This document shows positions 1 to 62,064 of a stretch of DNA of 64,000 bases, piece by piece. The stretch is taken from NCBI GenBank assembly GCA_001791745.1, contig MGFG01000020.1, forward strand, positions 10,712 to 74,711. The letters are read 5' to 3'. Source of the DNA: Candidatus Uhrbacteria bacterium RIFOXYC2_FULL_47_19 (GTDB lineage: Bacteria; Patescibacteriota; Patescibacteriia; SG8-24). How positions within the stretch are numbered: position 1 is the stretch's first letter; each line of letters opens with the position of its first letter. The notes under the pieces were generated by a model. The model did not search any database. It had not been told where the DNA came from and saw only the letters and a list, made by a program, of their open reading frames with translations. The position numbers and the translations under genes were made by a program.

Positions 1-6
1 GGTACT

Positions 7-4240: not shown

Positions 4241-4493
4241 GTTCTGTTGAATTGTTTGGGTTTAGAGTTTCGGGTTTCGGTACGTGCAGAGGGTGGTCGG
4301 TCTTAAAGGTCTATCTGCAGACAGTTTGACGGTAGGCAGGCATCAAATTGGAACGATTGGCCGGCGGTCCGGCTGACGGCTATACTAAATAAATGAGCGG
4401 ATTGCCTTTGCGGTCCGTATCTTAAAAAGGCGGATTCGTCGTCAGACGATAGGGCCTTCTTATAGGACTTTCTGCCAAAAGCAGCGCGGTTCG

Positions 4494-6182: not shown

Positions 6183-6212
6183 GATGGGTCGTTGTTTACC
6201 TAACGCGTTCAT

Positions 6213-8748: not shown

Positions 8749-8767
8749 CTGATCGAGAAGATCTAAT

Positions 8768-8965: not shown

Positions 8966-9399
8966 ATCTTTTTAGATCAAAGCCTTTGGTTGGACATGAC
9001 TACTTAAAAGTGAAGCGAAGTCGATTTTGATATACTTCGTTCTATGGCTTTAGCCGTGGGTATCTATCTACTCGGCAGGATCAGCGTGCCGGACAGTTTG
9101 ACTGAAAGACTCGAGAATATGGTTGCATTAGAATCCGGAGACGTACGGAGTATGACCGAACAAGCCCTGATTTTATTGGAGATGGCATCGAAAGGGCCAG
9201 AGCTGTTCCTCTTCAATGGAGGAACTTTTAATCCATACACCCTCATGAAATGAGGTCTAGCAGATTCGTCGATGAGAGCGATAAGGGCCGCTTCTTGCGC
9301 CTCTTTTTTGTATCGGAGATTTTTTGGCAAGTGTAATTGCGTCTCCTTAAGGGCCGACCCATTGCCAGAACGCCGCGGATTTGGTACCTTCTTCGCCAT

Positions 9400-10860: not shown

Positions 10861-11009
10861 GCGTCAGAATCAGTTCTTTAAAAAAGGCTTATTTATGAGG
10901 TAGCGCATTGGGCGTAAGGGCTATTTTTATGCCTATTGCGCTACCTCATGCAGAGGAAGCCGTTTGCCGGAGCGATTCCGGTAAATCCAAATATAGAAGG
11001 AGGATGACG

Positions 11010-11918
11010 ATGTCACAGACATTGATCACCAGCCGAGACCCGAAAGGTCTCCACGCAATCGGTCTCTTCGAGGCCGCCTACAACAAGTCCAAGCTCGACG
11101 AGGAACGCGCACAGCGGCTCAACGAGCGCGGTGGCGAACTGCAGGACGGGATCGCGAAGCTCATCGCTAAGCTGTCCCAGTCCAACCAGTACGTGAGTGA
11201 GGAAGTTCGTTCCAATTATACGTACCCGAAGGAGTACGAAGGGCCGAAGCCGATCAATGACCAGATCAAGGCGATCGCCAAGATTTTCGATCTCGACCCG
11301 AGCCACACCATCGAGTTCGCCAAGACCCTGCCGGAACTCCCGAACGGTGCCGAAGGATGGTTCGCGATTCCCTCGGTGGACGCACTGGCCAAGAAGCACT
11401 TCCCCGAAGTGACCGATCCGATCCAGAAGTACTGCCAGGCGGTCCAGATCGTTCACACCAAGATCGCCGACTCCCGGTCGTTCTACAACTACCGTGAGGG
11501 TCAGATCACGCCGGCGCAACTGCGGGTTCACGCTCGCACGGCGCACGCGCTGGATCTCATCTCCGAAACACAAGAAGCGAGCGACATCCTGATCGTCGCC
11601 GCCCAGCTAGGGCTTCGCCATCGCGGCAAGTCCAGCCGTCGGGCTCGTGAGGTCTTCGTGGAGGGCGAGTTCGGTCTCGGAAGTCTCGCAGTCGGTTCCA
11701 TCGTTCTCACTCATCCCGAACGGCTCGTCTGTTGGGAGGAACTGGACATGGATTGTTCCGGCGACGAGTTTTCTCCGGAGGCCGATGGCGACTTTTCTGA
11801 GTCTCCCGGCTTCGGCTTCATTGGCAACAAGGTCGAGTTCGGCACGCGCCTCGTTGACGGCCCGGACGTGGGCTTCGGTTCGGTGTCCGGCTTCCTCTCG
11901 CAGGAAATCGATCCTTGA
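11010..11918 (+). CDS. Hypothetical protein in a gene of elevated GC (about 60%)
   Basis: The ORF follows the RBS GAAGGAGG at 10996-11003, with the second ATG at good spacing. The product is acidic at the C-terminus and I recognised no family. Confidence 0.5.
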   Translation: MSQTLITSRDPKGLHAIGLFEAAYNKSKLDEERAQRLNERGGELQDGIAKLIAKLSQSNQYVSEEVRSNYTYPKEYEGPKPINDQIKAIAKIFDLDPSHTIEFAKTLPELPNGAEGWFAIPSVDALAKKHFPEVTDPIQKYCQAVQIVHTKIADSRSFYNYREGQITPAQLRVHARTAHALDLISETQEASDILIVAAQLGLRHRGKSSRRAREVFVEGEFGLGSLAVGSIVLTHPERLVCWEELDMDCSGDEFSPEADGDFSESPGFGFIGNKVEFGTRLVDGPDVGFGSVSGFLSQEIDP

Positions 11919-11977
11919 TGTCTTGAATTCTTGGGGCTTTTGATCCCTTGAATTCCGCCGACAGCGGCTCGAAAAAA

Positions 11978-12022
<45 letters not shown>

Positions 12023-48887: not shown

Positions 48888-49877
48888 ATGTCAAACCAGA
48901 TTGAAGAATTGCACCGTCTTGTGTCGCCTGATATCACCATTGATGAGCCGTTAGCTTTGCACACTACATATCGGATTGGTGGTCCGGCTGATTTCTTTTT
49001 TGCTGCTCCGTCCGTTGCCCTGGTGACAGCGGCAGTTCAAGTCGCCCAAGAACTAAATTTGCCGTATTACATCTTAGGTGGAGGTTCAAACGTTTTAGTT
49101 TCAGATGATGGTTTTCGAGGGCTGGTAATAAAAATGATTAATCGTGGTATCGAGATTGATGGAAACAAAGTTAGGGTTGAGGCTGGTACGCCGACTTCTT
49201 TAGTAGCACTTCAATCAACCGAGGCTGGCATGACTGGATTTGAGTGGGCTATTGGTTTGCCTGGAACAATCGGTGGTGCCATTCGTGGTAATGCTGGTTG
49301 CTATGGTGGTTCAACCGGCGAGTCGATTGAGAGTGTCAGTTGTTTGCGTAATGGGCAATTGATTGAAATGCTTCAAGCAGAGTGTGAGTTCGGCTATCGT
49401 CAGAGTGTATTCAAGTCTGAACCAGGTTATGTAATTTTGTCTGCAGTTCTATTATTACGTACTGCAGATAATGCAACTAATGGTCAGGTTAGATTGAAAG
49501 AGATTTTGAATGATAAAAGATCGACTCAACCAACGGGACAGTCGACCGCTGGCTGCGTGTTTAAAAACTGGCACCCCGAATCACCTGAGGATTTGGACGA
49601 TTTACGTCGTTGGTTAGATCTTGATTCAGACGAGAAGGTTCCAGTAACAACTGATGGAACTGTTCCAGCCGGTTGGATTTTAGATCGAGCCCAATTGAAG
49701 GGGACTAAGGTCGGTCATGTTGGTATTTCCGATCGACATGCTAATTTTTTGGTCAATGATGGACAGGCAACTGCTGGAGAAGTGATTGAATTAATTGCTG
49801 TAGTTAAGTCGCGATTACGTAGTCAGACTCAAGGACGAGTTAATCTTCTGGAAGAAATCGAGTATGTCGGATTTTGA
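48888..49877 (+). CDS. murB: UDP-N-acetylenolpyruvoylglucosamine reductase
   Basis: The FAD-binding domain reads TTYRIGGPADFF...ILGGGSNVLVSD. The catalytic motifs are GCVFKN and GHVGISDRHANF. Confidence 0.9.
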   Translation: MSNQIEELHRLVSPDITIDEPLALHTTYRIGGPADFFFAAPSVALVTAAVQVAQELNLPYYILGGGSNVLVSDDGFRGLVIKMINRGIEIDGNKVRVEAGTPTSLVALQSTEAGMTGFEWAIGLPGTIGGAIRGNAGCYGGSTGESIESVSCLRNGQLIEMLQAECEFGYRQSVFKSEPGYVILSAVLLLRTADNATNGQVRLKEILNDKRSTQPTGQSTAGCVFKNWHPESPEDLDDLRRWLDLDSDEKVPVTTDGTVPAGWILDRAQLKGTKVGHVGISDRHANFLVNDGQATAGEVIELIAVVKSRLRSQTQGRVNLLEEIEYVGF

Positions 49878-50877
49878 GGTACTGCCAGTTCAAATCGAGG
49901 AGAATGATGTTGATTTGTCTAACTCTGGAATTAAAAAAGAAATTACCAATCCTACTTTACAATCAAAAAAACGACGGATAGTGATTCGTTGGATTTGGCT
50001 AGTAATTGTCGTAGTAGTTGTTGGTCTGGTCTGGTGGTGGTTCGGAGGTAATGTTTGTAGTCTACCGATTGAATATCGCATTGGGCATTACGACGAACGA
50101 TTTGATATCTCTAAAGAGGAGTTTTTGATGGTATTATCTGAGGCTGAACTAAAATGGGAAAGTGCGACCGGTCAGGACTTACTGCGCTATAATGCAAATA
50201 GTACTGAGGCTGTGGCGGTAAATTTGGTTTTTGATGATCGGCAGGTGGCGACACAGGAGTTGGAACGATTGAAGTTCGAACGTGATGGTTTAGAATCGGA
50301 AATTGGTTCAATAGCCGATGAGTATCAAAAACTTAGGTCCGTCTACGATGCTCGTGAGGCATCGATCGCTGAATTAAAAACATATTACGAAGAGCAACTT
50401 CAATTATTTGAATTGACTGTCCGAGCTTGGAATACCCGTGGTGGTGCATCTCGGGATGTCTACGATGAGTTGTTACGCGAACAGAGTCGTCTAGATAATT
50501 ATGTTAGCGATTTGAATGCACTTATTGATGAGCAAAATCGTCAGGCTGAGCAGCTTAATCAGTTAGCCGGACAGGAGCAGGAAAAGGTTGTGGGTTTCAA
50601 TGCTGGAGTTAGTCGTTTTAACGAAACGTTTACCTTGGGAGAAGATGATGAACAGGGAATTTATAGTTCTGGAACCATTAATGTTTATCAGTTTGATAAT
50701 CGTGAGGATTTAGTTATGTTATTAATGCATGAGTTTGGGCATGCATTGGGGTTAGGTCACGATAGTGATCCTCAATCGATAATGTTTCCTCGTAAAAACG
50801 AGCAGCAAGATGATGGCGACGCTTACATTTCATCAGGTACCCTACAGGGGTTATTCCGTCGCTGTAACTTACACTAA
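49864..50877 (+). CDS. Membrane-anchored matrixin-like (metzincin) zinc metalloprotease with a coiled-coil region
   Basis: A TM helix reads IWLVIVVVVVGLVWWWF. The catalytic motif HEFGHALGLGHDSDPQSIMFP matches HExxHxxGxxH plus a Met-turn. The gene overlaps the murB stop by 14 nt. Confidence 0.7.
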   Translation: MSDFEVLPVQIEENDVDLSNSGIKKEITNPTLQSKKRRIVIRWIWLVIVVVVVGLVWWWFGGNVCSLPIEYRIGHYDERFDISKEEFLMVLSEAELKWESATGQDLLRYNANSTEAVAVNLVFDDRQVATQELERLKFERDGLESEIGSIADEYQKLRSVYDAREASIAELKTYYEEQLQLFELTVRAWNTRGGASRDVYDELLREQSRLDNYVSDLNALIDEQNRQAEQLNQLAGQEQEKVVGFNAGVSRFNETFTLGEDDEQGIYSSGTINVYQFDNREDLVMLLMHEFGHALGLGHDSDPQSIMFPRKNEQQDDGDAYISSGTLQGLFRRCNLH

Positions 50878-51470: not shown

Positions 51471-54281
51471 ATGTCATTCTTACATCGAATTTTTGGCGAT
51501 CCCAATGAGAAAGTATTGGCGGAGATGAATCCCCGAATAGAGGACATCAACGCATTGGAAGAGGAAATTAGTCAACTAGGACCGGAGGCAATTCGGGATC
51601 GGTCAGTCGATCTTAAACGACGGGTGGCAATTGGAGTGTCTTTGGATGAGATTCTACCTGAGGCCTTTGCACTCTGTCGTGAGGCAGCCAAGCGCACGCT
51701 CGGTCAACGTCATTACGACGTCCAATTAATGGGCGGTATTGTGTTACACAATGGGCAGATCGCTGAGATGCGGACTGGTGAGGGTAAGACTCTAACAGCA
51801 ACTTTAGCTGTTTATTTGAACGCATTATCTGGCAAAGGCGTGCACGTGGTGACAGTTAATGATTATCTGTCGCGTCGTGATGCAGCTTGGATGGGTCAGG
51901 TCTACCATGCACTCGGTTTGAGTGTGTCCTGTGTTAATCATCAGACGGCTTATGTTTACGATCCAGACTGGAAAGTACCGGAACAGACGACTGAATTAAC
52001 CATGGAAGATTTAGCGGAGGCTTCGGAAAAGGAAGAAGGGGGAGCTGTGGATCAGAAGCGCGATGCAACCGGTTCATTCCAAGTCGAAATGGATTACCTT
52101 CGTCCGGTCGGACGAAAAGACGCCTATTTGGCGGATATCACTTACGGTACCAATAACGAGTACGGTTTTGATTATTTGCGTGACAACATGGCCGTTCGTC
52201 CGGAACAGAAGGTTCAACGTCCGCTGCATTATGCCATTGTTGATGAGGTTGACTCGATCCTGATTGATGAGGCTAGGACGCCACTCATTATTTCTGCACC
52301 AGCCGAAGAGGCGGCAGATACCTACTACAAATTTGCAACTTTGGTTAAGCCTCTACAAGAGGACGTAGACTTCAATCGTGACGAGAAAATGAAGGCTGCA
52401 AGTTTCACCGAAGAGGGACAGAATCGAGTTTCGCGCGAATTGGGCTTTGACCCTTGGGCCGACAATGATACACGGACTATTTTTCATCTTGAAGCCGCGT
52501 TGCGTGCCGGCAAAATGTATGAGATTGACCGTGATTACGTAGTTAAGGATGGCGAGGTGATTATTGTTGATGAGTTTACTGGTCGGTTAATGAATGGTCG
52601 ACGCTACAGTGAGGGCCTACATCAAGCTATCGAAGCTAAGGAAGGAGTGGCTATCCAACGAGAGAGTCGAACACTTGCTACTGTCACTTTCCAGAATTAT
52701 TTTCGCATGTACGAGAAGTTGGCCGGTATGACCGGTACGGCCGCGACTGAGGCTGAAGAGTTTTCTAAGATTTACAGTCTAGAGGTCACAGTAATTCCAA
52801 CTAATCGACCAACTTGCCGTGAGGATTTACCAGATCGAATTTTTAAAAACGAAAAAGGTAAGTTCGCCGCGGTGGTGGAGGAAATTCGAGCTAGGCACGA
52901 AAAAGGACAACCGGTATTGGTTGGTACAGCTTCAATTGAGAAAAATGAGATACTAGGGAAATTGCTCGAGCGTGAAGGTATACCGCATGAGTTGTTGAAT
53001 GCTAAGAATCACGAGCGTGAGGCCAAGATAATCGCTCAAGCTGGTCGGGTTGGGGCGGTAACGATCGCTACTAATATGGCCGGGCGTGGTGTGGATATTA
53101 TTTTAGGTGGTAATCCGCCAGATTCAGCAGCGATTGAAAAGGTACGTGAATTAGGTGGATTGTTTGTTATTGGTACCGAACGACATGAGTCACGACGTAT
53201 TGATAATCAGTTGCGCGGCCGTGCCGGACGACAAGGTGATCCGGGCAGTACTAGGTTCTTTATTTCGCTCGAGGATGATTTGATGCGGATTTTTGCTTCG
53301 GACAGCATGCGCGCTATGATAGACCGTCTTGGTTTGCCGGATGACTTACCAATCGAGAATCGAATCGTTAATCGCTCCATTGAGAGTGCTCAGAAGAAAG
53401 TTGAAGGACACCACTTCGATGTTCGTAAGCATCTCTTGGAGTACGACGATGTACTAAATCGGCATCGCGAGGTTTTTTATCGCAAACGTGATGAGATGTT
53501 GGCTTTGTCGCCAGATGATTCAATTGGTATGCGTCAGCATACGCTTGAAATGGTGGAGTCGGAGATTGAGCGGGTAGTTTTATTCCATACTTCAGCCGAG
53601 GACGAGAAGGCCTGGGATTTGAAGGAAATCTACGAGGTTGTCGACACTATTTTTCCAATGTCGACTGAGGAACGTGAAAAATTAACAGAAATTAGTCGTG
53701 AAGCTGGTTCTAAGAAAGAGGATGCCGAAGCTCGAACCAAGATCATTGAATTTTTGATGTCGGTGGCCGGTATAGAATACGATAAATTGGAGTCTAGAGT
53801 TGGTGCAGCTCTCGCTACAATAGGTGGTGGTAATAGCCATTTTCCTGACATTGTTCGTGGCATGATCTTACGTGCTATGGATATGTTATGGGTTGAGCAT
53901 TTGGACGCTATTGATCATATGCGAACCGGTGTTGGGTTGCAGGGCTATGGTCAGCGTGATCCATTGGTTGAGTACAAGAGGGAGTCTTTTCGTATGTTCA
54001 ATGAGTTCATGGCTATGATCGAAAAGCAGGTCGTTTACTCGTTGTTCAAAATGAGCGTGGTGGCCCAGCGGCCACAGACTGTCCAGCCGGCCAAGTCGCT
54101 TTTGGATCAGAAAGGATTAAAAATGTCAGGTGCTCAAAAATCGGCCGATGGTGGGGTGGTTGAGTCCGGTGCTGGAGCGGCTAGCGACAAGATTGGTCGC
54201 AATGACCCTTGTCCTTGTGGGGCAAGCAAGGAGGATGGTACTCCGGTCAAGTATAAGAAGTGTCATGGCCGGGAGGTTTAA
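51471..54281 (+). CDS. secA: Preprotein translocase ATPase SecA
   Basis: MRTGEGKTLTATL is the Walker A motif. The DEAD-like, PPXD and HSD domains are present. The C-terminal Zn motif is CPCGASKEDGTPVKYKKCHG. The ATG at MSFLHRIFG is the start; the upstream part of the track ORF begins with a TTG. Confidence 0.9.
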   Translation: MSFLHRIFGDPNEKVLAEMNPRIEDINALEEEISQLGPEAIRDRSVDLKRRVAIGVSLDEILPEAFALCREAAKRTLGQRHYDVQLMGGIVLHNGQIAEMRTGEGKTLTATLAVYLNALSGKGVHVVTVNDYLSRRDAAWMGQVYHALGLSVSCVNHQTAYVYDPDWKVPEQTTELTMEDLAEASEKEEGGAVDQKRDATGSFQVEMDYLRPVGRKDAYLADITYGTNNEYGFDYLRDNMAVRPEQKVQRPLHYAIVDEVDSILIDEARTPLIISAPAEEAADTYYKFATLVKPLQEDVDFNRDEKMKAASFTEEGQNRVSRELGFDPWADNDTRTIFHLEAALRAGKMYEIDRDYVVKDGEVIIVDEFTGRLMNGRRYSEGLHQAIEAKEGVAIQRESRTLATVTFQNYFRMYEKLAGMTGTAATEAEEFSKIYSLEVTVIPTNRPTCREDLPDRIFKNEKGKFAAVVEEIRARHEKGQPVLVGTASIEKNEILGKLLEREGIPHELLNAKNHEREAKIIAQAGRVGAVTIATNMAGRGVDIILGGNPPDSAAIEKVRELGGLFVIGTERHESRRIDNQLRGRAGRQGDPGSTRFFISLEDDLMRIFASDSMRAMIDRLGLPDDLPIENRIVNRSIESAQKKVEGHHFDVRKHLLEYDDVLNRHREVFYRKRDEMLALSPDDSIGMRQHTLEMVESEIERVVLFHTSAEDEKAWDLKEIYEVVDTIFPMSTEEREKLTEISREAGSKKEDAEARTKIIEFLMSVAGIEYDKLESRVGAALATIGGGNSHFPDIVRGMILRAMDMLWVEHLDAIDHMRTGVGLQGYGQRDPLVEYKRESFRMFNEFMAMIEKQVVYSLFKMSVVAQRPQTVQPAKSLLDQKGLKMSGAQKSADGGVVESGAGAASDKIGRNDPCPCGASKEDGTPVKYKKCHGREV

Positions 54282-54355: not shown

Positions 54356-54386
54356 TAAAAACCGTGCCCCCAAGGTTCGGTTTTTT
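54356..54386 (+). terminator. Terminator-like hairpin after secA
   Basis: AAAACCG-tgcccccaaggtt-CGGTTTTTT. Confidence 0.4.
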
Positions 54387-54503
54387 GGTTTGATTTGACA
54401 GTGTTTTGTTGGTATTTTAAAAGGGATGTTGTTATAGAAATAATCGACGGATTATGAATAATGAGCAGGTAATAATTGACAAAATAGACGGCTTGGCCTC
54501 CTT

Positions 54504-54767
54504 TTGAGAGGACAGATCGAAGGGTTAGCGGCCGATGTCAGGGAGTTGAATGGGCGAGAGGATTTACTTTTTCAGAAAGTAATGGAGATTGAAGATAAGA
54601 TTTACGTTCTGTCATCCAATGCACGAGTCTCCGATTTGGAGAGTTGTATGATGACCGAGTTTGATAGACGGTCCTTGGTATTGAAAAAATTGGATGAAGA
54701 ACGTTTAGCGTCGTTTGTGCGCATGGATCAGATTGAAGATTGCTTCAATTCAGCTAGCGTCGTTTGA
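54504..54767 (+). CDS. Hypothetical small protein (TTG start; weak call)
   Basis: An 87-aa ORF with no ATG start. Coiled-coil-like. Confidence 0.3.
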   Translation: MRGQIEGLAADVRELNGREDLLFQKVMEIEDKIYVLSSNARVSDLESCMMTEFDRRSLVLKKLDEERLASFVRMDQIEDCFNSASVV

Positions 54768-54807
54768 CCAGTAGATCGAATTCTATCGGTCTATAATCAA
54801 TATTTCA

Positions 54808-56256
54808 TTGTCGGGAAACAATAAATTGTATTCTATGGAGAGTTTTTTTTCGCAAGAGCATTTTCGGTCACTGCCAAAAGAATCCTTGCAGGAAGTTTAT
54901 GAAAATAAACGTGTAGAACTACCATTTATCCCAAAAGATTTGGCATTTTTTGTTGATACCACTCACGGTAATTTACAACTACGTGTACTGCCGTATCATC
55001 ATCGTAGTGCGGATTTGGGTATTTCTTTACCCATAGTTGAAAGAGGAAAGAGAGAAAATAGAGTTTACTGCCAAGTTGATGTTAAGGGTGGTGGTTTTTT
55101 GTTTCCTAAAAGTTTTGAATCTAAGAAGGACGGCATAGTAATGGGTCAACTAGATGATGCCGAGGAAGTTTATTTTATGCCGGACTCTAAAGAAACGCCT
55201 TGGAGTTATGATTTTCTAGGGTTGATGGATGAGAGGTTGGCTATGAGAGTTACCGAGGTGATCGAGATGTTGGCTGAGACGGGCATGAGGACGGAGGCTC
55301 TGGCCGGTGTTTATAGGACTGATCGGGTAGTGATTAACGGACAAGATGTTTCTATAGATGACCTCAAAGAGAAAGTCGTCGATCAGTTACAACAAGCCAT
55401 CAGTGCTGCCAACAGTGATCATGAGAAGTCTGAATTGGAAGGTAAGATAGAAGATCTGAAGGAAAATTTTGATCCGGTAATAGTTATTCGTCTGATGCGT
55501 TCGGTGTTGCGCATTAGGGATATGAAGGAAGTTATGGGTGATATTGGTCAGGAAGGGGTAGTTCAGATGATTTCTGAGGCCTGTAAGAATTTAAACATTG
55601 AAGCTAAGGCTCTTGGCCACTCGGACCGATTTGATGCCTCGACTCCGGAAGGGCGTGAGAAGTGGGTAAAATTTGTCTGTTTTTGGTACGGGAAAAACGC
55701 CGGTATTATGCATCGCGAGGGGGTAGTCCATCAGTTTCTACACATGGGTAACCTGACTTTGGCAGGGGAGGTGGTCGATATGGATTCCGTCGGACAGTTG
55801 CTGACACACAAGAAGTTTAGGGGTCGACCAGAGAACAAGGAGAAATGGATCAAGCGTGGTGATCGTAATGGTGACGGGACACCGTTCAGCGAACGGTCAT
55901 TCTTTAGGTCTACCGATGACGGTTGTGTTTTTATTAGTCCCGAAGTGGGCCTGCATCAGCAACCAGATGAACGTTTTGGTTTACCCAAGGCTTTATTAAA
56001 GGACTTACGTGATTCATGCTTTTCTATACATTTGATGTGTAAAAATATTTTGACTAAATTGCCAGGTATGAATGTTTCTGAGTTAAGACAGAAGTTGGCT
56101 GATGATTTTGTTCGTGGGTACAAGGATGGATTAGACGGCTCAGAGCCATTTGATAAGATTGGTATTACTGGGGACAGGTTGATATCTGTTTGCACTGAAA
56201 TATCCGAGAGCGTTATTGCCAGAGGTGAGTATTATGCGCCAATTCCTATCGATTAA
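54808..56256 (+). CDS. Hypothetical protein (482 aa)
   Basis: A soluble protein. The segment GIMHREGVVHQFLHMGNLTLAGEVVDMD loosely resembles the catalytic H-x-D...N...D loop of phosphotransferases. This resemblance is weak. Confidence 0.55.
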   Translation: MSGNNKLYSMESFFSQEHFRSLPKESLQEVYENKRVELPFIPKDLAFFVDTTHGNLQLRVLPYHHRSADLGISLPIVERGKRENRVYCQVDVKGGGFLFPKSFESKKDGIVMGQLDDAEEVYFMPDSKETPWSYDFLGLMDERLAMRVTEVIEMLAETGMRTEALAGVYRTDRVVINGQDVSIDDLKEKVVDQLQQAISAANSDHEKSELEGKIEDLKENFDPVIVIRLMRSVLRIRDMKEVMGDIGQEGVVQMISEACKNLNIEAKALGHSDRFDASTPEGREKWVKFVCFWYGKNAGIMHREGVVHQFLHMGNLTLAGEVVDMDSVGQLLTHKKFRGRPENKEKWIKRGDRNGDGTPFSERSFFRSTDDGCVFISPEVGLHQQPDERFGLPKALLKDLRDSCFSIHLMCKNILTKLPGMNVSELRQKLADDFVRGYKDGLDGSEPFDKIGITGDRLISVCTEISESVIARGEYYAPIPID

Positions 56257-56301
56257 GTGTCGAGTTTTTAATAAAAATTCATAATTTATCAATCCTGAAT
56301 A

Positions 56302-59300
56302 TTGGCCTTGCGGTTTATGAACAGAAAACCTTTTGAGAGTGGTGGACGTGGTGAGCAAGAAAGAGAGCATATTGATTTTTCTTTGCAAGCGGAAGAAAAG
56401 AATCTTACTCCTTTGCAGTTGATGGTTTTGGAGGAAGTAAAGTTTGTTCTTGGTAATTGGGGTGAAGCGGAAAGAATTGATAATGAAGCCATCAATGGAG
56501 ACGAGGTGTTTCGTGTTTTTGATATTGAGAAATTAACTAGTGCGATTGATGAGGCTAAACACAGGTTTGACGTTAACAATATTCCAGAAGCTTTCGTCAA
56601 TAGGTGTATTAAAGAGATAGTTGAGAATCTCATTGATTGGCATGAGTATAGGGCATCATTTCTTTTGTCTAAAGAATTTTCTCTGACTTCTCAGGACTTT
56701 GGTTCAGATATTTTTTTTGAAAGTTTAGTCGATCAGGCTCATGAATTTATTTTGTCTTCTCTAGAAGAAGGTAGGTTGAATGAAGCCTTGAATGTAATAG
56801 AAGGTCTTGATTCATCAGATGACATCATCAAGACGCGTGAATTTGAGCTTTCCTTATGGAAAGGAATAGAAATTGAATTGTGTGTAGGGGATATTGATTC
56901 TGTACTACAGGTCGTTGATAAGTTAGGGATCAGAGAGGCTTTATCAGCCTCGGAGGATGCAAAAAGATGGGCAATGTGGGGGGTAGAGTATTTGCATGAA
57001 AATTTTGGATTATCGGAGGAAAAAATCTTGAAGATAGCAAATACTTTCAATATAAGAAATGAGATAGCAGTAAGAATTATATCTTTGGAATTGTTTCAGG
57101 ATGATTTTTTGCGCGATGTTGAGTCTTTTTTAATCTCGGTTGATTTTTTAGGGGTAGATTCTGAAGTTATTAAGTCATCCAAAGAGGTACGACAAGAGGC
57201 TTTAGCAAAAGCCTTACTGATTTTTACGAAAAATGATGAAGATAATAATGCAACCAAAAGAAAAGCTTTGGCTACGATTGACTATCTGGGAATAGATGAA
57301 CAGGAAAAGAAGAATTTCTTATCTAAACTGGTCGAATCTGGTGATCTCGATATAGCAAGGCAAGCCTACAATGATTTTGGTCTCAAATGGGATGACCTAA
57401 CTAAGAGCAAAGAGCTTCAAGAATTAGGCTGGTCAGGTGTGCTTTCTAATTTGAGTTTCACTAGATTCTCTGACTCACTAATGATGGCCGACGAGTTTTC
57501 TCTTCGTGAGCGTCTCCTCAGCTCACCGGAAGCTAGACAGAGCGCACTAATGGGTATGGTAAATGCTTTTTTAAATCGGGGTGAGTCAGTCGGCATAGAA
57601 TTCATTCATAAGTTCGCAGATCTTATCGGTGTAGAATGGAAGACCTTTGCTTCATCTGAAGATGTACAGAACGCAGCTTGGGATGGAATGATGTGTTGTT
57701 TGAGACAACATTATCAGGATTCAATATTAACCATCGCCGACGAGTTTTCTCTTGGTGAGCGTCTCCTCAGCTCACCAGAAGCTAGACAGAGCGTGTTAGT
57801 TGGTATGGAAAATCATTTTTATTGGCAAGGATCTGTATCAAACGGCATAGAATTCATTCATAAGTTCGCAGATCTTATCGGTGTAGAATGGAAGACCTTT
57901 GCTTCATCTGAAGATGTACAGAACGCAGCTTGGGATGGGATGATGCAAAACTTAAAACATTTGGCTAATGATTTAAAGTCAATATTAACCATCGCTGACG
58001 AGTTTTCTCTTCGTGAGCGTCTCCTCAGCTCACCGGAAGCTAGACAGAACGCATTGAATAAAGCTTTTTTGTGTCTTCGTAGTTTTTCTTACAAAAAGTG
58101 TCTTGATATAGTGAATTTTTTTGAATTAGGTCAGGAGGTAGTTTCTACAAAAGGGGGTGAGGATTTAGTATTAGAGGTTTTTTTCTACATCTTGAGAGCT
58201 GATGATGTTTCTAAAGCCTCCAGTTTTATTAGCAGTTTTAAACCCCTCGCTAGTCGAAGTAAGAGGTTTTTACGAATTTTTGGCAATTTAGGACTTCAAA
58301 TCCATTGGAATATTTTGCAGGATATTTATGACGGTGTAATTTCGTCCGACGTTGCTGAGTTGGGTGTAAGTAGAGTTGGAGAATCCGGCGTTCTTGAATT
58401 AGAAGATTCTTTTCGTAGAGAAAAACATAATTTTTTAAAAAAAGATATTTCATCTGATGAAAGACTTAAGGTTTTGATCAAAAATCCAATTTTTAGAATT
58501 TTTTTACAGTCGTTAACTAGATTTAACGATTCTGAATACGGCAGACATGATGACGTGATTTGGGATAGTATGGTGGACGATTTTAATAGGAGGCTTCACG
58601 CCGGACAATTGAAACCCCTTCCTGTAGAGTATGTCCCTAGCGGGAAATTAGAGATTAAAAAGATAGGTCGATCACAAGAGTCCAACAAAGAGAAAAAGTT
58701 TGTGCATGATAAAAATTTTCTTAAACGTTACGGCCAGCTGGTCCATGAAATACAAGAAGCACAGGCAAAGATGAAAGAAAAATTCTTTGGTGGACTCACT
58801 GTTGATTTTCTTAGGGGGTTAACTGAGATTATCGAAAATAAGCTTGTTGACTTAGAGAAGGTAGAGGATGGTTTAGTTGCCCAAGGCGATTTGGAACGGC
58901 CAGTATTGGTTGATGTCGGTAGTAAGATCATCTTCCTTAGAGATATCTCTGAGGCCTTACATGAGATATTGCGTACACCGGAAATGGATTTAAAAGGTGA
59001 CTTTATCGGTCGTATAGCAAATGATTTGCGAAAATCCATATGTCAAGAGTCCTCTAAATTAGAGGGTGAAAAAGAAGCTTGGAAGATAAAATTAGATTCG
59101 GACGATCGAATGGTAAACGAAAAGGCCAGTTTTGTTCTTAAGAATATTGAAAAAAAAATAGGAGATTTGAATCGACTTACATCCCTGCTCAACAATGATC
59201 GGCCTAATTTTGATGAATTAATTTCTCGTTTTGTTGGTTTTGACACATCTATAAAGAGTTTACGTCAAGGTTTAATATTTCTGTCATTTTTAATGAACCC

Positions 59301-60078
59301 ACGTTTATTAGAAAATGATTATTCCAATTTGGCGGAAGGTATAGATAGGCAGGACGTATCAGAGGATGAAATATCTAAAGTCATAAATTTTATCGATCAG
59401 GTAACCAATCGTGAAACCTTCGGTGTATTTTTGGACGATAAAGAAAAATGCAAGATTCTTGATTCACTACTCTCAGTTTCTAGTTTAAAACAGGAAATCA
59501 ATCGGTTGCAGGAGGCCAAGTCTCCAACAGGTAAGACTACATCTGTAGCTTTTATCCCATCTCGCGACCTTAAGACGGAAATTTCAGGGCATATGGCCGA
59601 TGCTTGTTGGGCTAATAAAGAAAAATCTATTCTTCAGTCTCATCCTAATTTTATTTCAGTGACTTTTGTTGGTAATCCAGAAAGTGAGGTTAATGAACGT
59701 GTGGTTGGAGCCTGCATACTCATTGAAACCAAGACTAGAGATAATGCCCCTATTATAGTTATTAGAGGATTTAATCCTATTGAAAATTTTACAAATTCAG
59801 TTGATCAGGAGTCTTTTTTCAGTCAATTTGTCAATTGGGTTAGGCCGATAGCTAAGTTGCGTGGATGTAAATTAGCGATGGTTATAGACGGAGAACGTGG
59901 CCTCGCGGCCAGTAATCGACAGGTTACTTATGATTATCTTGCTAGTCTCAGATCATCTTTGGAGAAAGTAACCTTGGCATCGAGCGTAGACACTAGTTTT
60001 AATGGATATTATATTGTCGACGATACCTACTTGATTCCTGATGATCTGTTTCAAGCAAAAAACCATCAAAAAAGTTAA
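56302..60078 (+). CDS. Large hypothetical protein (1,258 aa) containing about 2.3 near-identical 85-aa tandem repeats
   Basis: A long alpha-helical-looking ORF. The LTIADEFSLRERLLSSPEARQSAL...GIEFIHKFADLIGVEWKTFASSEDVQNAAWDGMM repeats are very similar at the DNA level. Confidence 0.65.
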   Translation: MALRFMNRKPFESGGRGEQEREHIDFSLQAEEKNLTPLQLMVLEEVKFVLGNWGEAERIDNEAINGDEVFRVFDIEKLTSAIDEAKHRFDVNNIPEAFVNRCIKEIVENLIDWHEYRASFLLSKEFSLTSQDFGSDIFFESLVDQAHEFILSSLEEGRLNEALNVIEGLDSSDDIIKTREFELSLWKGIEIELCVGDIDSVLQVVDKLGIREALSASEDAKRWAMWGVEYLHENFGLSEEKILKIANTFNIRNEIAVRIISLELFQDDFLRDVESFLISVDFLGVDSEVIKSSKEVRQEALAKALLIFTKNDEDNNATKRKALATIDYLGIDEQEKKNFLSKLVESGDLDIARQAYNDFGLKWDDLTKSKELQELGWSGVLSNLSFTRFSDSLMMADEFSLRERLLSSPEARQSALMGMVNAFLNRGESVGIEFIHKFADLIGVEWKTFASSEDVQNAAWDGMMCCLRQHYQDSILTIADEFSLGERLLSSPEARQSVLVGMENHFYWQGSVSNGIEFIHKFADLIGVEWKTFASSEDVQNAAWDGMMQNLKHLANDLKSILTIADEFSLRERLLSSPEARQNALNKAFLCLRSFSYKKCLDIVNFFELGQEVVSTKGGEDLVLEVFFYILRADDVSKASSFISSFKPLASRSKRFLRIFGNLGLQIHWNILQDIYDGVISSDVAELGVSRVGESGVLELEDSFRREKHNFLKKDISSDERLKVLIKNPIFRIFLQSLTRFNDSEYGRHDDVIWDSMVDDFNRRLHAGQLKPLPVEYVPSGKLEIKKIGRSQESNKEKKFVHDKNFLKRYGQLVHEIQEAQAKMKEKFFGGLTVDFLRGLTEIIENKLVDLEKVEDGLVAQGDLERPVLVDVGSKIIFLRDISEALHEILRTPEMDLKGDFIGRIANDLRKSICQESSKLEGEKEAWKIKLDSDDRMVNEKASFVLKNIEKKIGDLNRLTSLLNNDRPNFDELISRFVGFDTSIKSLRQGLIFLSFLMNPRLLENDYSNLAEGIDRQDVSEDEISKVINFIDQVTNRETFGVFLDDKEKCKILDSLLSVSSLKQEINRLQEAKSPTGKTTSVAFIPSRDLKTEISGHMADACWANKEKSILQSHPNFISVTFVGNPESEVNERVVGACILIETKTRDNAPIIVIRGFNPIENFTNSVDQESFFSQFVNWVRPIAKLRGCKLAMVIDGERGLAASNRQVTYDYLASLRSSLEKVTLASSVDTSFNGYYIVDDTYLIPDDLFQAKNHQKS
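57481..58080 (+). repeat. Tandem direct repeat (period about 255 bp, about 2.3 copies) inside the 1,258-aa gene
   Basis: Stretches longer than 90 nt are identical between copies (gcatagaattcattcataagttcgcagatcttatcggtgtagaatggaagacctttgcttcatctgaagatgtacagaacgcagcttgggatgg). Confidence 0.8.
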
Positions 60079-60090
60079 AAAAGTCGTGAC

Positions 60091-60501
60091 ATGAAAATTA
60101 GTCAATATTTAGATGAATATTCGTCTGGTGAGCGGGTTAAATTGCATTACGTATTTGATGAAGTACGTGAATTACTAATTGAGGTGATTAGATTTAATCC
60201 TGATGGCGTAAATGAGGAATTCGAAGATGTATTATTTTTTGTCCAATTATGGTTGTTTTGGCGGTTTGGGATTGATGGTGAGACTTGGCGATTAACCAAG
60301 CATTCCGTTGAAAAATTTATGACCCGTCGTCCTATTTGGCGTCGTTTGTATCGAGAGGTGGGTCTACCAGAAACCATTTCTAATTTTTGTGGTAATTGCA
60401 ACAAAGTTGAGAAGGTGATCAAGCAGTTAAGCCTCTTTGGCATCGATCGCAAAATGGCTATAGCTGCCCATCGAAAAATCATCTTAGGAGATAGATCATG
60501 A
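60091..60501 (+). CDS. MazG-like all-alpha nucleoside triphosphate pyrophosphohydrolase (putative)
   Basis: LHYVFDEVRELLIEV...EEFEDVLFFVQLWLFWRFGID resembles the MazG/HisE EExxE...E-ADVL...GID pattern. The stop overlaps the next start (ATGA). Confidence 0.5.
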   Translation: MKISQYLDEYSSGERVKLHYVFDEVRELLIEVIRFNPDGVNEEFEDVLFFVQLWLFWRFGIDGETWRLTKHSVEKFMTRRPIWRRLYREVGLPETISNFCGNCNKVEKVIKQLSLFGIDRKMAIAAHRKIILGDRS

Positions 60502-61043
60502 AGATTGATACAAAGACAGAAGTAGTTTCGTCCGAAGGAGGTTGTACTTCAAAAGAGGCCTCTATGGTAGTTCATTGGATAGAGGAGGCAGCTGCGGTCG
60601 CTCGGCAGGCTACCTGCCGGCGGGTTTTGTGCGGGGCGATTATTGTGAGCGGTGAGGAAGTGATCGGTCAGGGATTCAACTTGCCACCCGGCAACGACGA
60701 GCAGGAACGACGTTGTCACCGGCATAAGTCATCCTACGATCTAAAGATCACAGACAAGACTTGCTGCGTACACGCCGAGTAACGGGCGGTAATGGACGCA
60801 CTGGCTCGACATCCAGATCGACTGGCTGGTTCAACTATGTATTTTGTTGGTTTGCTGCCTGATGGTAGTCCACGCTCGCAGGGTGGTGAGATCCGTCTCT
60901 ACTGTACGATCTGCACCAAGATGATGCGTGATGTAGGTATCGCCAAGTACGTACTGCAAACTCCGGACGGATCGTCAGTCTCCTATTCGGCGGATGAGTA
61001 TCTGCGTCTATCTTATGAATACAGTCATCAATTTACTAACTAA
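60498..61043 (+). pseudogene. dCMP/cytidine deaminase-fold gene (ComEB-like) interrupted by an in-frame TAA
   Basis: CRRVLCGAIIVSGEEVIGQGFN...C-x-x-x-x-C...CCVHAE is followed by TAA at 60780-60782. The same frame continues RAVMDALARHPDRLAGSTMYFVGLLPDG...LYCTICTKMM (a C-x-x-C Zn ligand). The stop falls at the residue after the HAE motif. Confidence 0.6.
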
Positions 61044-61054
61044 TCTCATTTGGT

Positions 61055-61471
61055 ATGCGAATTGGGGTGGTTGGCAGCATGCATTTTACAGAGACGATGT
61101 TGGAGATGCGGGATAGACTGATCGATCTCGGTCATGATGCTTATTTGACCGGGTTGGCCGCACCGTTTATTGGTAAGTCAGACAAGGAAAAAGAAAAGAT
61201 TAAGATTGAACAAAAGACACATCAAGACGCGATTCGTGATTTTTGGAGATTGATGCAAGGAGGAGATGCAATTTTAGTCGTTAATCCCGATCGTCATGGT
61301 ATTGTTAACTATATAGGAGGAAATACTTTTTTGGAGATGGGGTTTGCTCACGTTTTAGATCAGAAGATATTTTTACTTAATCCAATTCCCGACATACCGT
61401 TTTATCGTACTGAAATTGAGGCTTTTCAACCGATTATTCTAAATGGCGACCTGGATCGTCTAATCGTATAA
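61055..61471 (+). CDS. Nucleoside 2-deoxyribosyltransferase / DNPH1(Rcl)-like protein (putative)
   Basis: IGVVGSMHF...GGDAILVVNPDRHGIVNYIGGNTFLEMGFAHVLDQKIFLLNP matches the ADAVVA...G-x-x-TAFE-x-GYA...KPV pattern of the NDT/DNPH1 fold. Confidence 0.5.
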   Translation: MRIGVVGSMHFTETMLEMRDRLIDLGHDAYLTGLAAPFIGKSDKEKEKIKIEQKTHQDAIRDFWRLMQGGDAILVVNPDRHGIVNYIGGNTFLEMGFAHVLDQKIFLLNPIPDIPFYRTEIEAFQPIILNGDLDRLIV

Positions 61472-61561
61472 AAAATTTATTGCAATTAATTTATCGTTGG
61501 GGATGACATCGATCTTCGGAGCTGATAGCATACAAGACATCTTCAACTAAACCCGACCATC

Positions 61562-62005
61562 ATGTGGGACATCAATGAGATACATCGTCGTCTTAAAGAA
61601 AAGAAAAAAGAACGTCGTGATTTAAATCGTGTCGTCAAGGATGAGTTGTCCCAGAACGCCGAGTATCAGCAAGTTATTGAAGAATTGAAAACGCTCAAAG
61701 AGCGTAAGAAATCGATTGAGGGGACGATTAAGATGTCCTGCTCATCTGAGGTCGACCGCATGGACGTACTGAAAGACGAAATTGCTGCCGATACCGAATT
61801 ACTTTCCGATTTAGCACTCAATATGTACGTTGAAGGCAAGACTGTTGAAATTGTCGAGGATGAAACGCGTTATGTACCGCAGTTTACTGTTCGGTTCAAA
61901 AAAGACGACACACCGGTTTCCGCAGCCATGGCCGAAGCAGCTGCAGCAGCACGAGCCGAGTCGCACCAGGAACGTACTTTCGCTCCATTCGTCCAGCCGG
62001 TTTGA
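61562..62005 (+). CDS. Hypothetical coiled-coil protein
   Basis: A 147-aa charged helical ORF with an Ala-rich C-terminus. Confidence 0.45.
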   Translation: MWDINEIHRRLKEKKKERRDLNRVVKDELSQNAEYQQVIEELKTLKERKKSIEGTIKMSCSSEVDRMDVLKDEIAADTELLSDLALNMYVEGKTVEIVEDETRYVPQFTVRFKKDDTPVSAAMAEAAAAARAESHQERTFAPFVQPV

Positions 62006-62030: not shown

Positions 62031-62064
62031 AAGGTGGATTTACGGATTCACCTTTCTGTTTTTT
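62031..62064 (+). terminator. Rho-independent terminator
   Basis: AAGGTG-gatttacggatt-CACCTT is followed by TCTGTTTTTT. Confidence 0.55.

What the first reader, a model, noticed from the sequence alone, without database searches (positions are those of the whole stretch)
54504..62005. A 7.5-kb block of unknown genes between secA and secD ending in a nucleotide-processing operon
The block comprises seven consecutive plus-strand genes with no recognisable housekeeping role: an 87-aa ORF, a 482-aa protein, a 1,258-aa repeat protein, then a tightly coupled MazG-like / dCMP-deaminase / NDT(DNPH1)-like trio and a coiled-coil protein. Such insertions inside a conserved sec neighbourhood are typical of accessory islands. 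Nucleotide-converting and nucleotide-cleaving enzymes beside large unknown proteins are a recurring theme both in phage-defence systems (nucleotide depletion) and in nucleotide salvage of auxotrophic symbionts. The block could also be something else entirely.
Basis: inference. Interest (0 to 1): 0.6.

Follow-up and report, generated by a model that had tools for sequence, protein, structure and literature searches.

The report
Mosaic gene block between secA and secD
The 7.5-kb block is a patchwork of resident small genes (two of them broken) and an inserted gene pair: an enzyme resembling the AMP-transferase SelO, and a giant protein ending in an acetyltransferase-like domain. The pair recurs in this group of tiny uncultured bacteria and has not been studied.

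Summary
The block is a mosaic, not one island or operon.

- **Resident genes.** A sister lineage (SecA 92% identical) has, at the same site, homologues of the 87-aa ORF, the MazG-like gene, the "NDT-like" gene and the coiled-coil gene, all just before secD.
- **Inserted genes.** Only the 482-aa + 1,258-aa pair and the deaminase are extra here.
- **Broken genes.** The deaminase carries an in-frame TAA right after its HAE motif, seen in independent assemblies. The 87-aa ORF is a remnant left by a 175-nt frameshifting deletion.
- **The pair.** The 482-aa protein models confidently (pLDDT 95) as a kinase-like fold closest to SelO/YdiU and keeps SelO-type motifs. The giant ends in a GNAT-fold domain (core pLDDT >90). 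In all nine lineages with enough flanking DNA, a 482-like gene abuts such a giant on the same strand. The giants also occur without it.
- **No defence or phage signal.** PADLOC, the phage records, IMG/VR and BFVD gave nothing.
- **Unconfirmed labels.** The MazG and NDT assignments could not be confirmed.

The pair most likely acts as a two-enzyme modification module. Its closest functional analogue is the microcin-maturation pair MchC/MchD, but only at the level of fold.

The parts
54357..54385 (+). Terminator-like hairpin followed by a T-run, downstream of secA. The next ~70 nt, up to the ATG at 54455, are nearly identical to the sister genome.
   Evidence: Fold energy -11.9 kcal/mol, z = -3.1. 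The sequence is conserved against L098 although GC3 differs greatly between the two genomes.
54455..54767 (+). Remnant of a coiled-coil gene. The original start and 17 codons lie at 54455-54508. The rest (the '87-aa ORF', 54504-54767) is in another frame after a 175-nt deletion.
   Evidence: DNA alignment with the sister's intact 162-aa gene. The C-terminal 87 aa are 60% identical. No family hit.
54808..56256 (+). SelO/YdiU-like protein of kinase-like (pseudokinase) fold. The ORF is 482 aa; the database entry P0001 is 473 aa, so the real start is probably the ATG at 54835.
   Evidence: AF2 pLDDT 95.2. Best PDB fold hits are YdiU and SelO, E = 1e-6 to 2e-4, probability 1.0, TM about 0.4, three orders of magnitude ahead of ordinary kinases. 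K93, R228, S232, R235, N315 and D324 are invariant in 46 homologues and line up with the SelO motifs. No Pfam, NCBIfam or PADLOC hit.
56302..60078 (+). Giant 1,258-aa protein: a fast-diverging N-terminal region that includes the tandem repeat, plus a conserved C-terminal domain. No transmembrane-like hydrophobic segment.
   Evidence: Always next to a 482-like gene in relatives.
57487..58053 (+). Internal tandem repeat: 252-nt (84-aa) unit, 2.2 copies, 84% matching.
   Evidence: Tandem Repeats Finder, the repeat finder families D1 and D2, protein repeats starting at aa 396, 479 and 565.
59530..60039 (+). GNAT-fold C-terminal domain of the giant (about aa 1077-1246). Conserved G, N-P, N-R and N-G-Y motifs and a nearly invariant D-A-C-W.
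   Evidence: AF2 model with core pLDDT above 90 and topology beta1-alpha-alpha-beta2-beta3-beta4-alpha-beta5-alpha-beta6-beta7. Every one of the top 50 PDB hits contains a GNAT domain (KacT, AtaT, SSAT, alphaTAT1, Naa50); E = 5e-3, probability 0.98-0.99. 860 cluster representatives carry this domain. No Pfam hit.
60091..60501 (+). 136-aa protein, possibly a MazG-type all-alpha NTP pyrophosphohydrolase. It is a resident gene of this site.
   Evidence: Sub-threshold Pfam MazG hit to the same profile region in this protein and in the sister orthologue. The sister orthologue is 59% identical and in the same position.
60498..61043 (+). CMP/dCMP-type deaminase gene, interrupted by an in-frame TAA at 60780-60782. 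It is absent between the MazG-like and NDT-like genes of the sister.
   Evidence: Translation reads VHAE*RAV...YCTIC. PF00383 at 41.1 bits against a cut-off of 25, with the stop read as Q. PHROG dCMP deaminase at 1.2e-13. The split ORFs occur in independent assemblies. GC3 is 0.50 against 0.34 and 0.37 for its two neighbours.
61055..61471 (+). It is a resident gene of this site; in the sister it overlaps the MazG-like gene by 4 nt.
   Evidence: The sister orthologue is 50% identical. The C-terminal half is strongly conserved, including GGNTFLEMGFAHVLDQK. No profile or PDB-sequence hit.
61562..62005 (+). 147-aa coiled-coil protein, conserved directly upstream of secD.
   Evidence: 94.5% identical in the sister lineage and 44% identical downstream of secA in a more distant relative, L005.
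62031..62054 (+). Terminator-like hairpin plus T-run that closes the block before secD.
   Evidence: -12 kcal/mol, z = -3.1.

Best explanation
The block is a mosaic that built up in a variable interval between secA and secD of a Candidatus Uhrbacteria genome.

**Resident layer.** A coiled-coil gene (now a frameshifted remnant), a MazG-like gene, a small gene coupled to it, and a highly conserved 147-aa coiled-coil gene.

**Two additions.**
(a) A dCMP-deaminase-type gene was inserted between the two small genes and now carries a nonsense codon. It is most likely decaying.
(b) A 5.3-kb two-gene module, which is the interesting part. It consists of a SelO/YdiU-like protein of kinase-like fold and a giant protein whose only conserved part is a C-terminal GNAT-fold domain.

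**Proposed mechanism of the module (inferred).** The SelO-like protein binds ATP in the flipped, SelO-type orientation. It transfers AMP, or adenylates a carboxylate, using Lys93, Arg228/Arg235, Asn315 and Asp324. The GNAT-like domain carries out an acyl-transfer step on the same substrate. The long, fast-evolving N-terminal region of the giant supplies target recognition or a scaffold. The closest functional precedent is the MceJ/MchC (SelO-like) plus MceI/MchD (HlyC-type acyltransferase) complex that tailors microcins. A simpler version is that the SelO-like protein regulates the giant acyltransferase by AMPylating it.

**Shown:** folds, motif conservation, strict gene adjacency, the mosaic history. 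**Inferred:** catalytic activities, the physical complex, the substrate.
For: **Mosaic history.**
- Sister loci L098-L101 keep murB-hpf-secA ... o87 homologue - MazG-like - NDT-like - cc147 - secD. They lack the 482/1,258 pair and this deaminase.
- No 482 homologue above 48% identity exists among 5.8 billion clusters.
- The remnant carries a 175-nt frameshifting deletion.
- The TAA appears in independent assemblies.
- The deaminase is an outlier in GC3.

**482-aa protein.** pLDDT 95.2. SelO and YdiU are the best fold hits. The motif registers RLMRSVLRIRD ~ RVAPSHLRFGH and HQFLHMGN...D ~ HGVMNTDN...D are recovered by hhalign, and the key residues are invariant. These registers match published SelO features: HRD Asp absent, Asn171 and DFG Asp kept, Arg residues and Lys binding the gamma-phosphate.

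**Giant.** GNAT fold. The domain family is large and almost always C-terminal.

**Linkage.** In 9 of 9 lineages with enough flanking DNA, the 482-like gene abuts a same-strand giant carrying the GNAT domain, in either order, with gaps from an overlap to about 90 nt. This includes a divergent pair, L107/L108, only 24% identical.

**Precedent.** MchC/MceJ acts in a complex with the HlyC-like acyltransferase MchD/MceI (PMC3281104).
Against: - Fold similarity to SelO is moderate (TM about 0.4) and sequence-profile tests fail: no Pfam hit, no PDB sequence hit with the family profile, hhalign probability 3.8%.
- The Asp next to the conserved Asn in SelO (NTDN) is an invariant Gly here.
- There is no sequence similarity to MchC or MchD, and no precursor-peptide or exporter genes in the block.
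- The GNAT domain lacks the canonical Q/RxxGxG/A motif and has no Pfam acetyltransferase hit, so it may bind a different donor or be non-catalytic.
- Several giants of the same family have no SelO-like neighbour (L096/97, L103, L105). The giant therefore does not need the partner.
- No interaction or activity data exist.
Confidence: 0.6

Rival explanations
1. The whole block is an anti-phage defence island. Nucleotide-converting enzymes deplete or alter nucleotides, and the large proteins sense infection.
For: The interval is variable and the sister lineage carries a transposase there. Deaminases and MazG-type or NUDIX enzymes do occur in known defence systems (general knowledge). The best fold matches of the GNAT domain include the tRNA-acetylating toxins AtaT and KacT. 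One relative has a RelB-like gene right after its giant.
Against: No PADLOC model matches any of the seven proteins with E below 0.003, and the weak hits are coiled-coil noise. The small nucleotide genes are resident and conserved, not part of the insertion. The deaminase is interrupted. No phage or viral relatives were found. The pair and the giants sit among housekeeping genes such as EF-G, L10/L12 and tRNA synthetases.
Confidence: 0.1
2. The small genes (MazG-like, deaminase, 138-aa protein) form a working nucleotide-salvage or house-cleaning operon of an auxotrophic symbiont. The large proteins are unrelated neighbours.
For: The MazG-like and 138-aa genes are translationally coupled and conserved in the sister. 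The sister interval also holds a CDA-like deaminase, a pyrophosphatase and a NUDIX gene, so nucleotide-related genes do gather here. The deaminase has HAE and CxxC motifs and a significant PF00383 match.
Against: The deaminase has a real in-frame stop and is missing from the sister's pair, so it cannot be an essential step. The MazG hit is below threshold and the NDT assignment has no support. This reading does not explain the 482/giant linkage.
Confidence: 0.35
3. The 482-aa protein is an inactive pseudokinase that serves only as a structural partner or chaperone of the giant, with no nucleotide-transfer chemistry.
For: The HRD Asp is absent and the SelO NTDN Asp is Gly. Many pseudokinases act as scaffolds (reviews listed).
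Against: The residues that bind nucleotide and metal in SelO (Lys, two Arg, Asn, DFG-like Asp) are invariant across 46 homologues that share only about 40-48% identity with the window protein. That pattern is what is expected of a working active site.
Confidence: 0.2
4. The TAA in the deaminase is read through or recoded, or the two halves reassemble, so the gene is functional.
For: The stop sits at a position that holds a tolerant residue (Q, M or E) in homologues. It persists in strain variants. An ATG follows three codons later.
Against: All other long ORFs in the window read normally in code 11. The variants are nearly identical, so the persistence has little evolutionary depth. The sister lineage lacks the gene.
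Confidence: 0.1

Closest known systems
SelO / YdiU protein adenylyltransferase (AMPylase/UMPylase pseudokinase; PDB 6eac, 6k20, 6lna)
   Same: Kinase-like fold, and the best structural neighbour. Similar size (482 aa against 478 aa). HRD Asp absent. Conserved Lys in a KGxG motif, an R-x3-S-x2-R phosphate-binding strand, the Asn171-equivalent and a DFG-type Asp in the same register.
   Different: No detectable sequence-profile relationship. TM-score only about 0.4. The Asp of the SelO NTDN motif is Gly. Invariant N-terminal YHHRSAD motif; whether SelO has a counterpart was not checked. The C-terminus ends ...YAPIPID, with no Cys/Sec. Among the named database hits it is found only in Uhrbacteria/Patescibacteria, and it is always linked to a giant GNAT protein.
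MchC/MceJ + MchD/MceI microcin-maturation pair (SelO-like protein plus HlyC-type acyltransferase)
   Same: A SelO-like protein encoded directly next to, and in the known case acting in complex with, an acyltransferase. HlyC-type acyltransferases are reported to belong to the GNAT superfamily; that is my recollection and was not checked here. E. coli CFT073 shows the same adjacency.
   Different: No sequence similarity to either partner. Here the acyltransferase-like domain is the tail of a 1,000-2,000-aa protein rather than a 150-aa enzyme. There is no microcin precursor, immunity gene or HlyB/HlyD exporter nearby.
GNAT acetyltransferases, including the type II toxins AtaT/KacT/GmvT
   Same: Same fold and strand order. 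A conserved C-terminal Tyr (Y220 of the modelled segment) sits near the C-terminus, as the catalytic Tyr does in AtaT.
   Different: No Pfam acetyltransferase match. An atypical R-G-x-N-P where the CoA-pyrophosphate loop would be. A nearly invariant Cys in a D-A-C-W motif. No antitoxin gene in the window. The domain is fused to a giant repeat protein.
dCMP deaminase (ComEB / phage Cd type, PF00383)
   Same: HAE and CxxC zinc-site motifs, a significant Pfam and PHROG match, and alignment to the dCMP deaminases 2hvv and 4p9c.
   Different: Interrupted by TAA directly after HAE. Far below the NCBIfam ComEB cut-off, 20 bits against 219.

Membership tests
SelO/YdiU family (Pfam UPF0061/SelO) | Significant match to the family sequence profile | tested here: not met
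   No Pfam or NCBIfam hit at E <= 0.1. The family profile A1 finds no SelO chain in the PDB. hhalign of A1 against E. coli SelO gives probability 3.8%.
SelO/YdiU family (Pfam UPF0061/SelO) | Kinase-like fold with SelO as the closest structure | tested here: met
   Model pLDDT 95.2. YdiU and SelO fill ranks 1-9, E = 1e-6 to 2e-4, probability 1.0, TM 0.37-0.41. The next hits are generic kinases at E > 2e-3.
SelO/YdiU family (Pfam UPF0061/SelO) | Active-site set: HRD Asp absent; beta3 Lys, gamma-phosphate Arg pair, Asn171-equivalent and D[YF]G Asp conserved | tested here: inconclusive
   K93, R228, R235, N315 and D324 are invariant and F/Y replaces the HRD Asp. The register is supported only by a weak hhalign alignment and by motif spacing. 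The third residue of the 'DFG' is not Gly (D-M/L-D-S).
SelO/YdiU family (Pfam UPF0061/SelO) | Transfers AMP/UMP from a flipped NTP to protein hydroxyls | not testable with these tools
   Needs biochemistry ([alpha-32P] against [gamma-32P] NTP).
MchC/MchD (MceJ/MceI) microcin-tailoring pair | Sequence homology to MchC and MchD | tested here: not met
   hhalign of A1 against CFT073 MchC gives probability 0.3%. A2 against MchD gives 0.2%.
MchC/MchD (MceJ/MceI) microcin-tailoring pair | SelO-like gene adjacent to an acyltransferase gene | tested here: met
   Met at fold level only. 9 of 9 lineages with flanking DNA. Folds.
MchC/MchD (MceJ/MceI) microcin-tailoring pair | Linked precursor peptide, immunity and ABC/HlyD export genes | tested here: not met
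   None among the block's ORFs or their Pfam hits. Neighbours in relatives are housekeeping genes.
GNAT acyltransferase superfamily | GNAT fold topology | tested here: met
   Secondary-structure order. All top-50 PDB hits contain a GNAT domain.
GNAT acyltransferase superfamily | Profile match to an acetyltransferase family, and the Q/RxxGxG/A CoA-binding motif | tested here: not met
   No Pfam acetyltransferase hit in 8 members. A conserved R-G-x-N-P stands at the beta4-alpha3 junction instead.
GNAT/RHH type II toxin-antitoxin (AtaT-AtaR, KacT-KacA) | Small stand-alone GNAT toxin with an adjacent RHH antitoxin | tested here: not met
   The domain is the last ~200 aa of a 1,258-aa protein, and the window has no RHH neighbour. 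A weak RelB-like neighbour occurs in L096/L097 only.
CMP/dCMP deaminase (PF00383) | Profile match above threshold, with HAE and CxxC zinc motifs | tested here: met
   41.1 bits against a cut-off of 25, with the stop read as Gln. Motifs visible.
CMP/dCMP deaminase (PF00383) | Uninterrupted reading frame | tested here: not met
   TAA at 60780-60782. The same split is present in independent assemblies.
MazG-type NTP pyrophosphohydrolase (PF03819) | Profile match above the gathering threshold | tested here: inconclusive
   14.1 and 14.2 bits against a cut-off of 22, for the window protein and its sister orthologue, on the same profile region. No PDB sequence hit. The E-x2-E ... E-x2-D pattern is seen by eye only.
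Nucleoside 2-deoxyribosyltransferase / DNPH1 (PF05014 and relatives) | Profile or structure-sequence match | tested here: not met
   No hit in Pfam or NCBIfam and no match to PDB sequences, for either the window protein or the two-sequence profile. The only PHROGs hit is to a family of unknown function, E = 0.0037.
Known anti-phage defence systems (PADLOC-DB) | Match of any component to a defence-system model | tested here: not met
   Only coiled-coil noise, best E = 0.0033.
Genomic island | Absent from the same site in the closest relative | tested here: met
   Met for 54808-60078 and 60498-61043. Not met for the 87-aa remnant, the MazG-like gene, the 138-aa gene and the 147-aa gene.
Genomic island | Mobility genes, tRNA target or flanking repeats; deviant composition | tested here: not met
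   No tRNA. No flanking direct or inverted repeats. No integrase or transposase in the block. GC3 of the pair (0.33-0.41) lies within the range of murB, murC and secA (0.33-0.45). Only the deaminase deviates, at 0.50.

The most novel reading that the evidence does not exclude
The SelO-like protein and the GNAT tail of the giant form an uncharacterised two-enzyme, ATP-dependent modification system found so far in Patescibacteria. One partner adenylates (or AMPylates) and the other transfers, as in MceIJ, but the system is built onto a rapidly evolving giant scaffold that chooses the target. That target could be a host or cell-envelope component of these episymbionts.
Probability: 0.25. Interest if true: 0.7.

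Novelty: new variant of a known kind. Interest (0 to 1): 0.45.

Why it matters
Patescibacteria (CPR) genomes are small, yet they spend 4-6 kb on giant proteins of unknown function. This work assigns a fold to the only conserved part of one large giant-protein family: 860 cluster representatives, none matching a Pfam model in the members scanned. It also identifies an obligately linked SelO-like partner in Uhrbacteria.

SelO-type enzymes are a recent addition to protein AMPylation and UMPylation chemistry. A divergent, lineage-restricted branch coupled to an acyltransferase-like domain would widen the known range of that chemistry. It would also give a concrete, testable handle on what CPR giants do.

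For genome annotation, the block is a cautionary case. An apparent 'operon of unknowns' breaks down into resident genes, two decaying genes and one inserted module once a close relative is compared.

Tried and rejected
- **Defence system.** PADLOC scan of all seven proteins: nothing.
- **Phage origin.** tblastn against 50,697 phage records with the MazG-like and 138-aa proteins, IMG/VR scans with those two and with the 482-aa family profile, and BFVD fold search with the 482-aa model: nothing.
- **Family libraries.** Pfam, NCBIfam and PHROGs for the 482-aa, 1,258-aa, 136-aa and 138-aa proteins gave no significant hit. Two-sequence profiles against the PDB also found nothing.
- **Alternative genetic code as the cause of the TAA.** Rejected, because all long ORFs in the window are intact in code 11.
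- **Sequencing error as the cause of the TAA.** Rejected, because the same split ORFs occur in several assemblies and variants.
- **Low GC of the giant gene (0.37-0.38) as a sign of foreign origin.** Rejected, because its GC3 (0.33) equals that of murB and murC.
- **Homology of the pair to MchC/MchD.** Rejected.
- **Word-index searches with the giant's C-terminal domain.** Almost empty. The exhaustive HMMER search was needed.

Full report
**Source and observation.** The 482-aa ORF is 100% identical to a hypothetical protein of Candidatus Uhrbacteria bacterium RIFOXYC2_FULL_47_19, a member of the Patescibacteria/CPR. They lie between secA (ends 54281) and secD (starts 62217). The 1,258-aa gene contains a 252-nt tandem repeat of 2.2 copies at 57487-58053. 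The three small genes are tightly packed: an ATGA overlap, then an 11-nt spacer.

Two details change the picture. First, the deaminase is split by an in-frame TAA (60780-60782) directly after its catalytic HAE motif. The same 94-aa and 83-aa halves are recorded from several independent assemblies and near-identical strain variants, so the stop is real. Second, the 87-aa ORF is a remnant, as described below. Terminator-like hairpins bracket the block at 54357-54385 and 62031-62054.

**Database screens.** Pfam, NCBIfam, PHROGs and PADLOC give one significant assignment only, the CMP/dCMP deaminase. It scores 41.1 bits on PF00383 and 1.2e-13 on the PHROG dCMP deaminase family, with the stop read through. 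'MazG' is a sub-threshold hit of 14 bits against a cut-off of 22. The sister orthologue reproduces it on the same profile region. The 'NDT/DNPH1-like' label has no profile support and no match to PDB sequences. No defence model matches. Neither the phage records, IMG/VR nor BFVD contain relatives.

**Is it an insertion?** I fetched secA neighbourhoods from species-representative genomes.
- In several Patescibacteria secA and secD are adjacent (L009, L018, L023). In others they are 0.6-4.4 kb apart. Here the gap is 7.9 kb.
- None of the block's genes occurs in those gaps, except a 44%-identical homologue of the 147-aa coiled-coil protein in the closest of these representative genomes, L005.

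A much closer sister lineage came to light through the 147-aa protein. It is represented by three MAGs and a JGI contig, with SecA 92%, Hpf 89% and the 147-aa protein 94.5% identical. Its order is murB - M10 peptidase - hpf - secA - [81-aa ORF, DDE transposase, CDA-like deaminase, pyrophosphatase, NUDIX] - 162-aa coiled-coil gene - MazG-like (59% identical) - '138-aa' homologue (50% identical, 4-nt overlap) - 147-aa gene - secD - secF.

The 482/1,258 pair and the deaminase are the only additions in the window genome.
- **The 87-aa remnant.** DNA alignment shows that the window keeps the sister's promoter-proximal region and the first 16-17 codons of the 162-aa gene (54455-54508). It then has a 175-nt deletion inside the repeat region, which shifts the frame. 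The '87-aa ORF' is what remains downstream.
- **The deaminase.** Its GC3 is 0.50 against 0.34 and 0.37 for the two genes it separates, which fits a separate origin.
- **The giant gene.** Its low GC is not foreign-looking, because its GC3 (0.33) equals that of murB and murC.
- **Borders.** No tRNA, mobility gene or flanking repeat marks the edges of the insertion.

**The 482-aa protein.** 48 homologues were found. All those that carry a source name are from Uhrbacteria or the Patescibacteria group, none is more than 48% identical, and none has a Pfam domain. With their alignment, AlphaFold2 gives a very confident model: pLDDT 95.2, pTM 0.93. Foldseek against the PDB places E. coli YdiU and P. 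syringae SelO in ranks 1-9 (E = 1e-6 to 2e-4, probability 1.0, TM about 0.4). Ordinary protein kinases follow from E = 2e-3.

The family's invariant residues fit the SelO active site as described in the literature:
- a Lys in D-x-K-G-x-G-F, compare SelO L-K-G-A-G;
- R228-x3-S232-x2-R235, compare SelO R-V-A-P-S-x-L-R, the Arg pair that holds the gamma-phosphate of the flipped ATP;
- H-x-[FY]-L-H-M-G-N, compare H-G-V-M-N-T-D-N, with the HRD Asp missing in both and the Asn171-equivalent kept;
- an invariant D324 in the DFG position.

hhalign against E. coli SelO recovers exactly these two registers. Its probability is only 3.8%, so the relationship is at the level of fold and motif, not statistically supported homology. 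Profile searches against the PDB and Pfam find nothing.

**The giant.** Giants next to 482-like genes in other genomes share only their last ~200 residues with the window protein, at 20-24% identity. An exhaustive HMMER search with that domain finds 860 cluster representatives (279 below 1e-30). The domain lies almost always at the C-terminus of 700-1,700-aa proteins, and a few proteins reach 6-7 thousand residues. Seven full-length members carry no Pfam domain apart from sigma-70 region 4/LuxR-type domains in one of them.

The AF2 model of the domain (core pLDDT above 90) has GNAT topology. Every top PDB match contains a GNAT domain (KacT, AtaT, SSAT, alphaTAT1, Naa50), with E about 5e-3 and probability 0.98-0.99. 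The canonical CoA-binding motif is replaced by R-G-x-N-P. A D-A-C-W cysteine and a C-terminal N-G-Y tyrosine are conserved. No transmembrane-like hydrophobic segment was found.

**Linkage.** In every lineage where a 482-like gene has enough flanking DNA, it abuts a giant carrying the GNAT domain on the same strand. There are nine such lineages: the window, L001, L003/4/93, L087, L088, L089, L091/92, L104 and L107/108. The order is usually giant first, and 482-like first in three (the window, L001, L104). Spacing runs from an overlap to about 90 nt. The genomic position differs between lineages: between EF-G and L10/L12 in L001, near tRNA-modification genes and a tRNA synthetase in L104. The module therefore moves as a unit.

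The dependence runs one way. Giants of the same family occur without a 482-like neighbour (L096/97, L103, L105). Neither family appears in the 80 secA loci.

**Mechanism.** A SelO-like protein working with an acyltransferase has a precedent. MchC/MceJ, remote SelO homologues, act in a complex with the HlyC-type acyltransferases MchD/MceI to attach a siderophore to a microcin (PMC3281104). The two genes are adjacent in E. coli CFT073. The Uhrbacteria pair has no sequence similarity to either partner and no precursor or exporter genes, so it is an analogue, not a member.

My best reading is a two-enzyme modification module. The SelO-like partner performs nucleotide-dependent activation or AMPylation. 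The GNAT domain performs acyl transfer. The variable N-terminal region of the giant acts as the targeting scaffold. Regulation of the giant by AMPylation is the simpler variant. Folds, motifs and linkage are shown. Activities, complex formation and substrate are inferred.

**The small genes.** The MazG-like and 138-aa genes are a conserved coupled pair. Their C-terminal tails differ: a 1-nt indel changes the frame of the MazG-like tail between the two lineages. A nucleotide house-cleaning or salvage role is plausible, given the neighbouring pyrophosphatase, NUDIX and CDA-like genes in the sister, but it is unproven. The deaminase is an add-on that is probably decaying.

**Verdict.** The single-island, defence-flavoured interpretation is only partly right. 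The worthwhile finding is a lineage-restricted SelO-like/GNAT-giant gene pair: a new variant of known enzyme kinds, of moderate interest.

Noticed in passing
window 51471-54281 vs L098 2518-5307: SecA is 92% identical at protein level between the window genome and its sister lineage, yet GC3 of the gene is 0.447 against 0.832 (overall GC of the 20.4-kb sister locus L098 is 58%; the window genome is about 47%). That is an unusually large compositional shift between close relatives.
   Followed up: partly
window 60780-60782: In-frame TAA directly after the catalytic HAE of the deaminase. An ATG follows three codons later, so the zinc-site ligands end up on two separate ORFs. The stop persists in strain variants from independent assemblies.
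   Followed up: partly
window 54386-54454: About 70 nt between the post-secA hairpin and the ATG at 54455 are nearly identical to the sister genome despite the GC shift elsewhere. This suggests a conserved promoter or leader for the small-gene cluster.
   Followed up: no
window 49864-50877: A 337-aa protein with a C-terminal zinc-metalloprotease motif (HEFGHALGLGHD; Peptidase_M10 in the sister) is one ORF here but two ORFs (137 + 181 aa) in the sister lineage.
   Followed up: no
window 61562-62005: The 147-aa coiled-coil protein is more conserved than SecA (94.5% against 92%) and always sits just upstream of secD. That is unexpectedly strong constraint for a protein with no assigned family.
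   Followed up: partly
window 60440-60501 vs L098 9400-9473: The C-terminal tails of the MazG-like proteins are homologous at the DNA level but read in different frames because of a 1-nt indel. Both end in TCATGA, which overlaps the start of the next gene.
   Followed up: no
window 15420-23960 and 1-12000: A second giant ORF (2,846 aa) at 52-54% GC, and a 51-61% GC stretch at the start of the window. Composition is very uneven across the 64 kb, from 37% to 61%.
   Followed up: no
L096 4953-5228; L097 4624-4905: A weak RelB-like (antitoxin-type) gene lies directly downstream of a giant with the same GNAT-like tail. The best fold matches of that tail are the GNAT toxins AtaT and KacT.
   Followed up: no
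L103 3092-6499 and 7782-11957: Two paralogous giants with the GNAT-like C-terminal domain flank an S41 peptidase gene. No SelO-like gene is present.
   Followed up: no
L098 5753-7099: In the sister lineage a DDE transposase (full length in some MAGs, truncated in one) and a CDA-like deaminase on the opposite strand occupy the secA-proximal part of the interval. This shows ongoing turnover at the site.
   Followed up: partly
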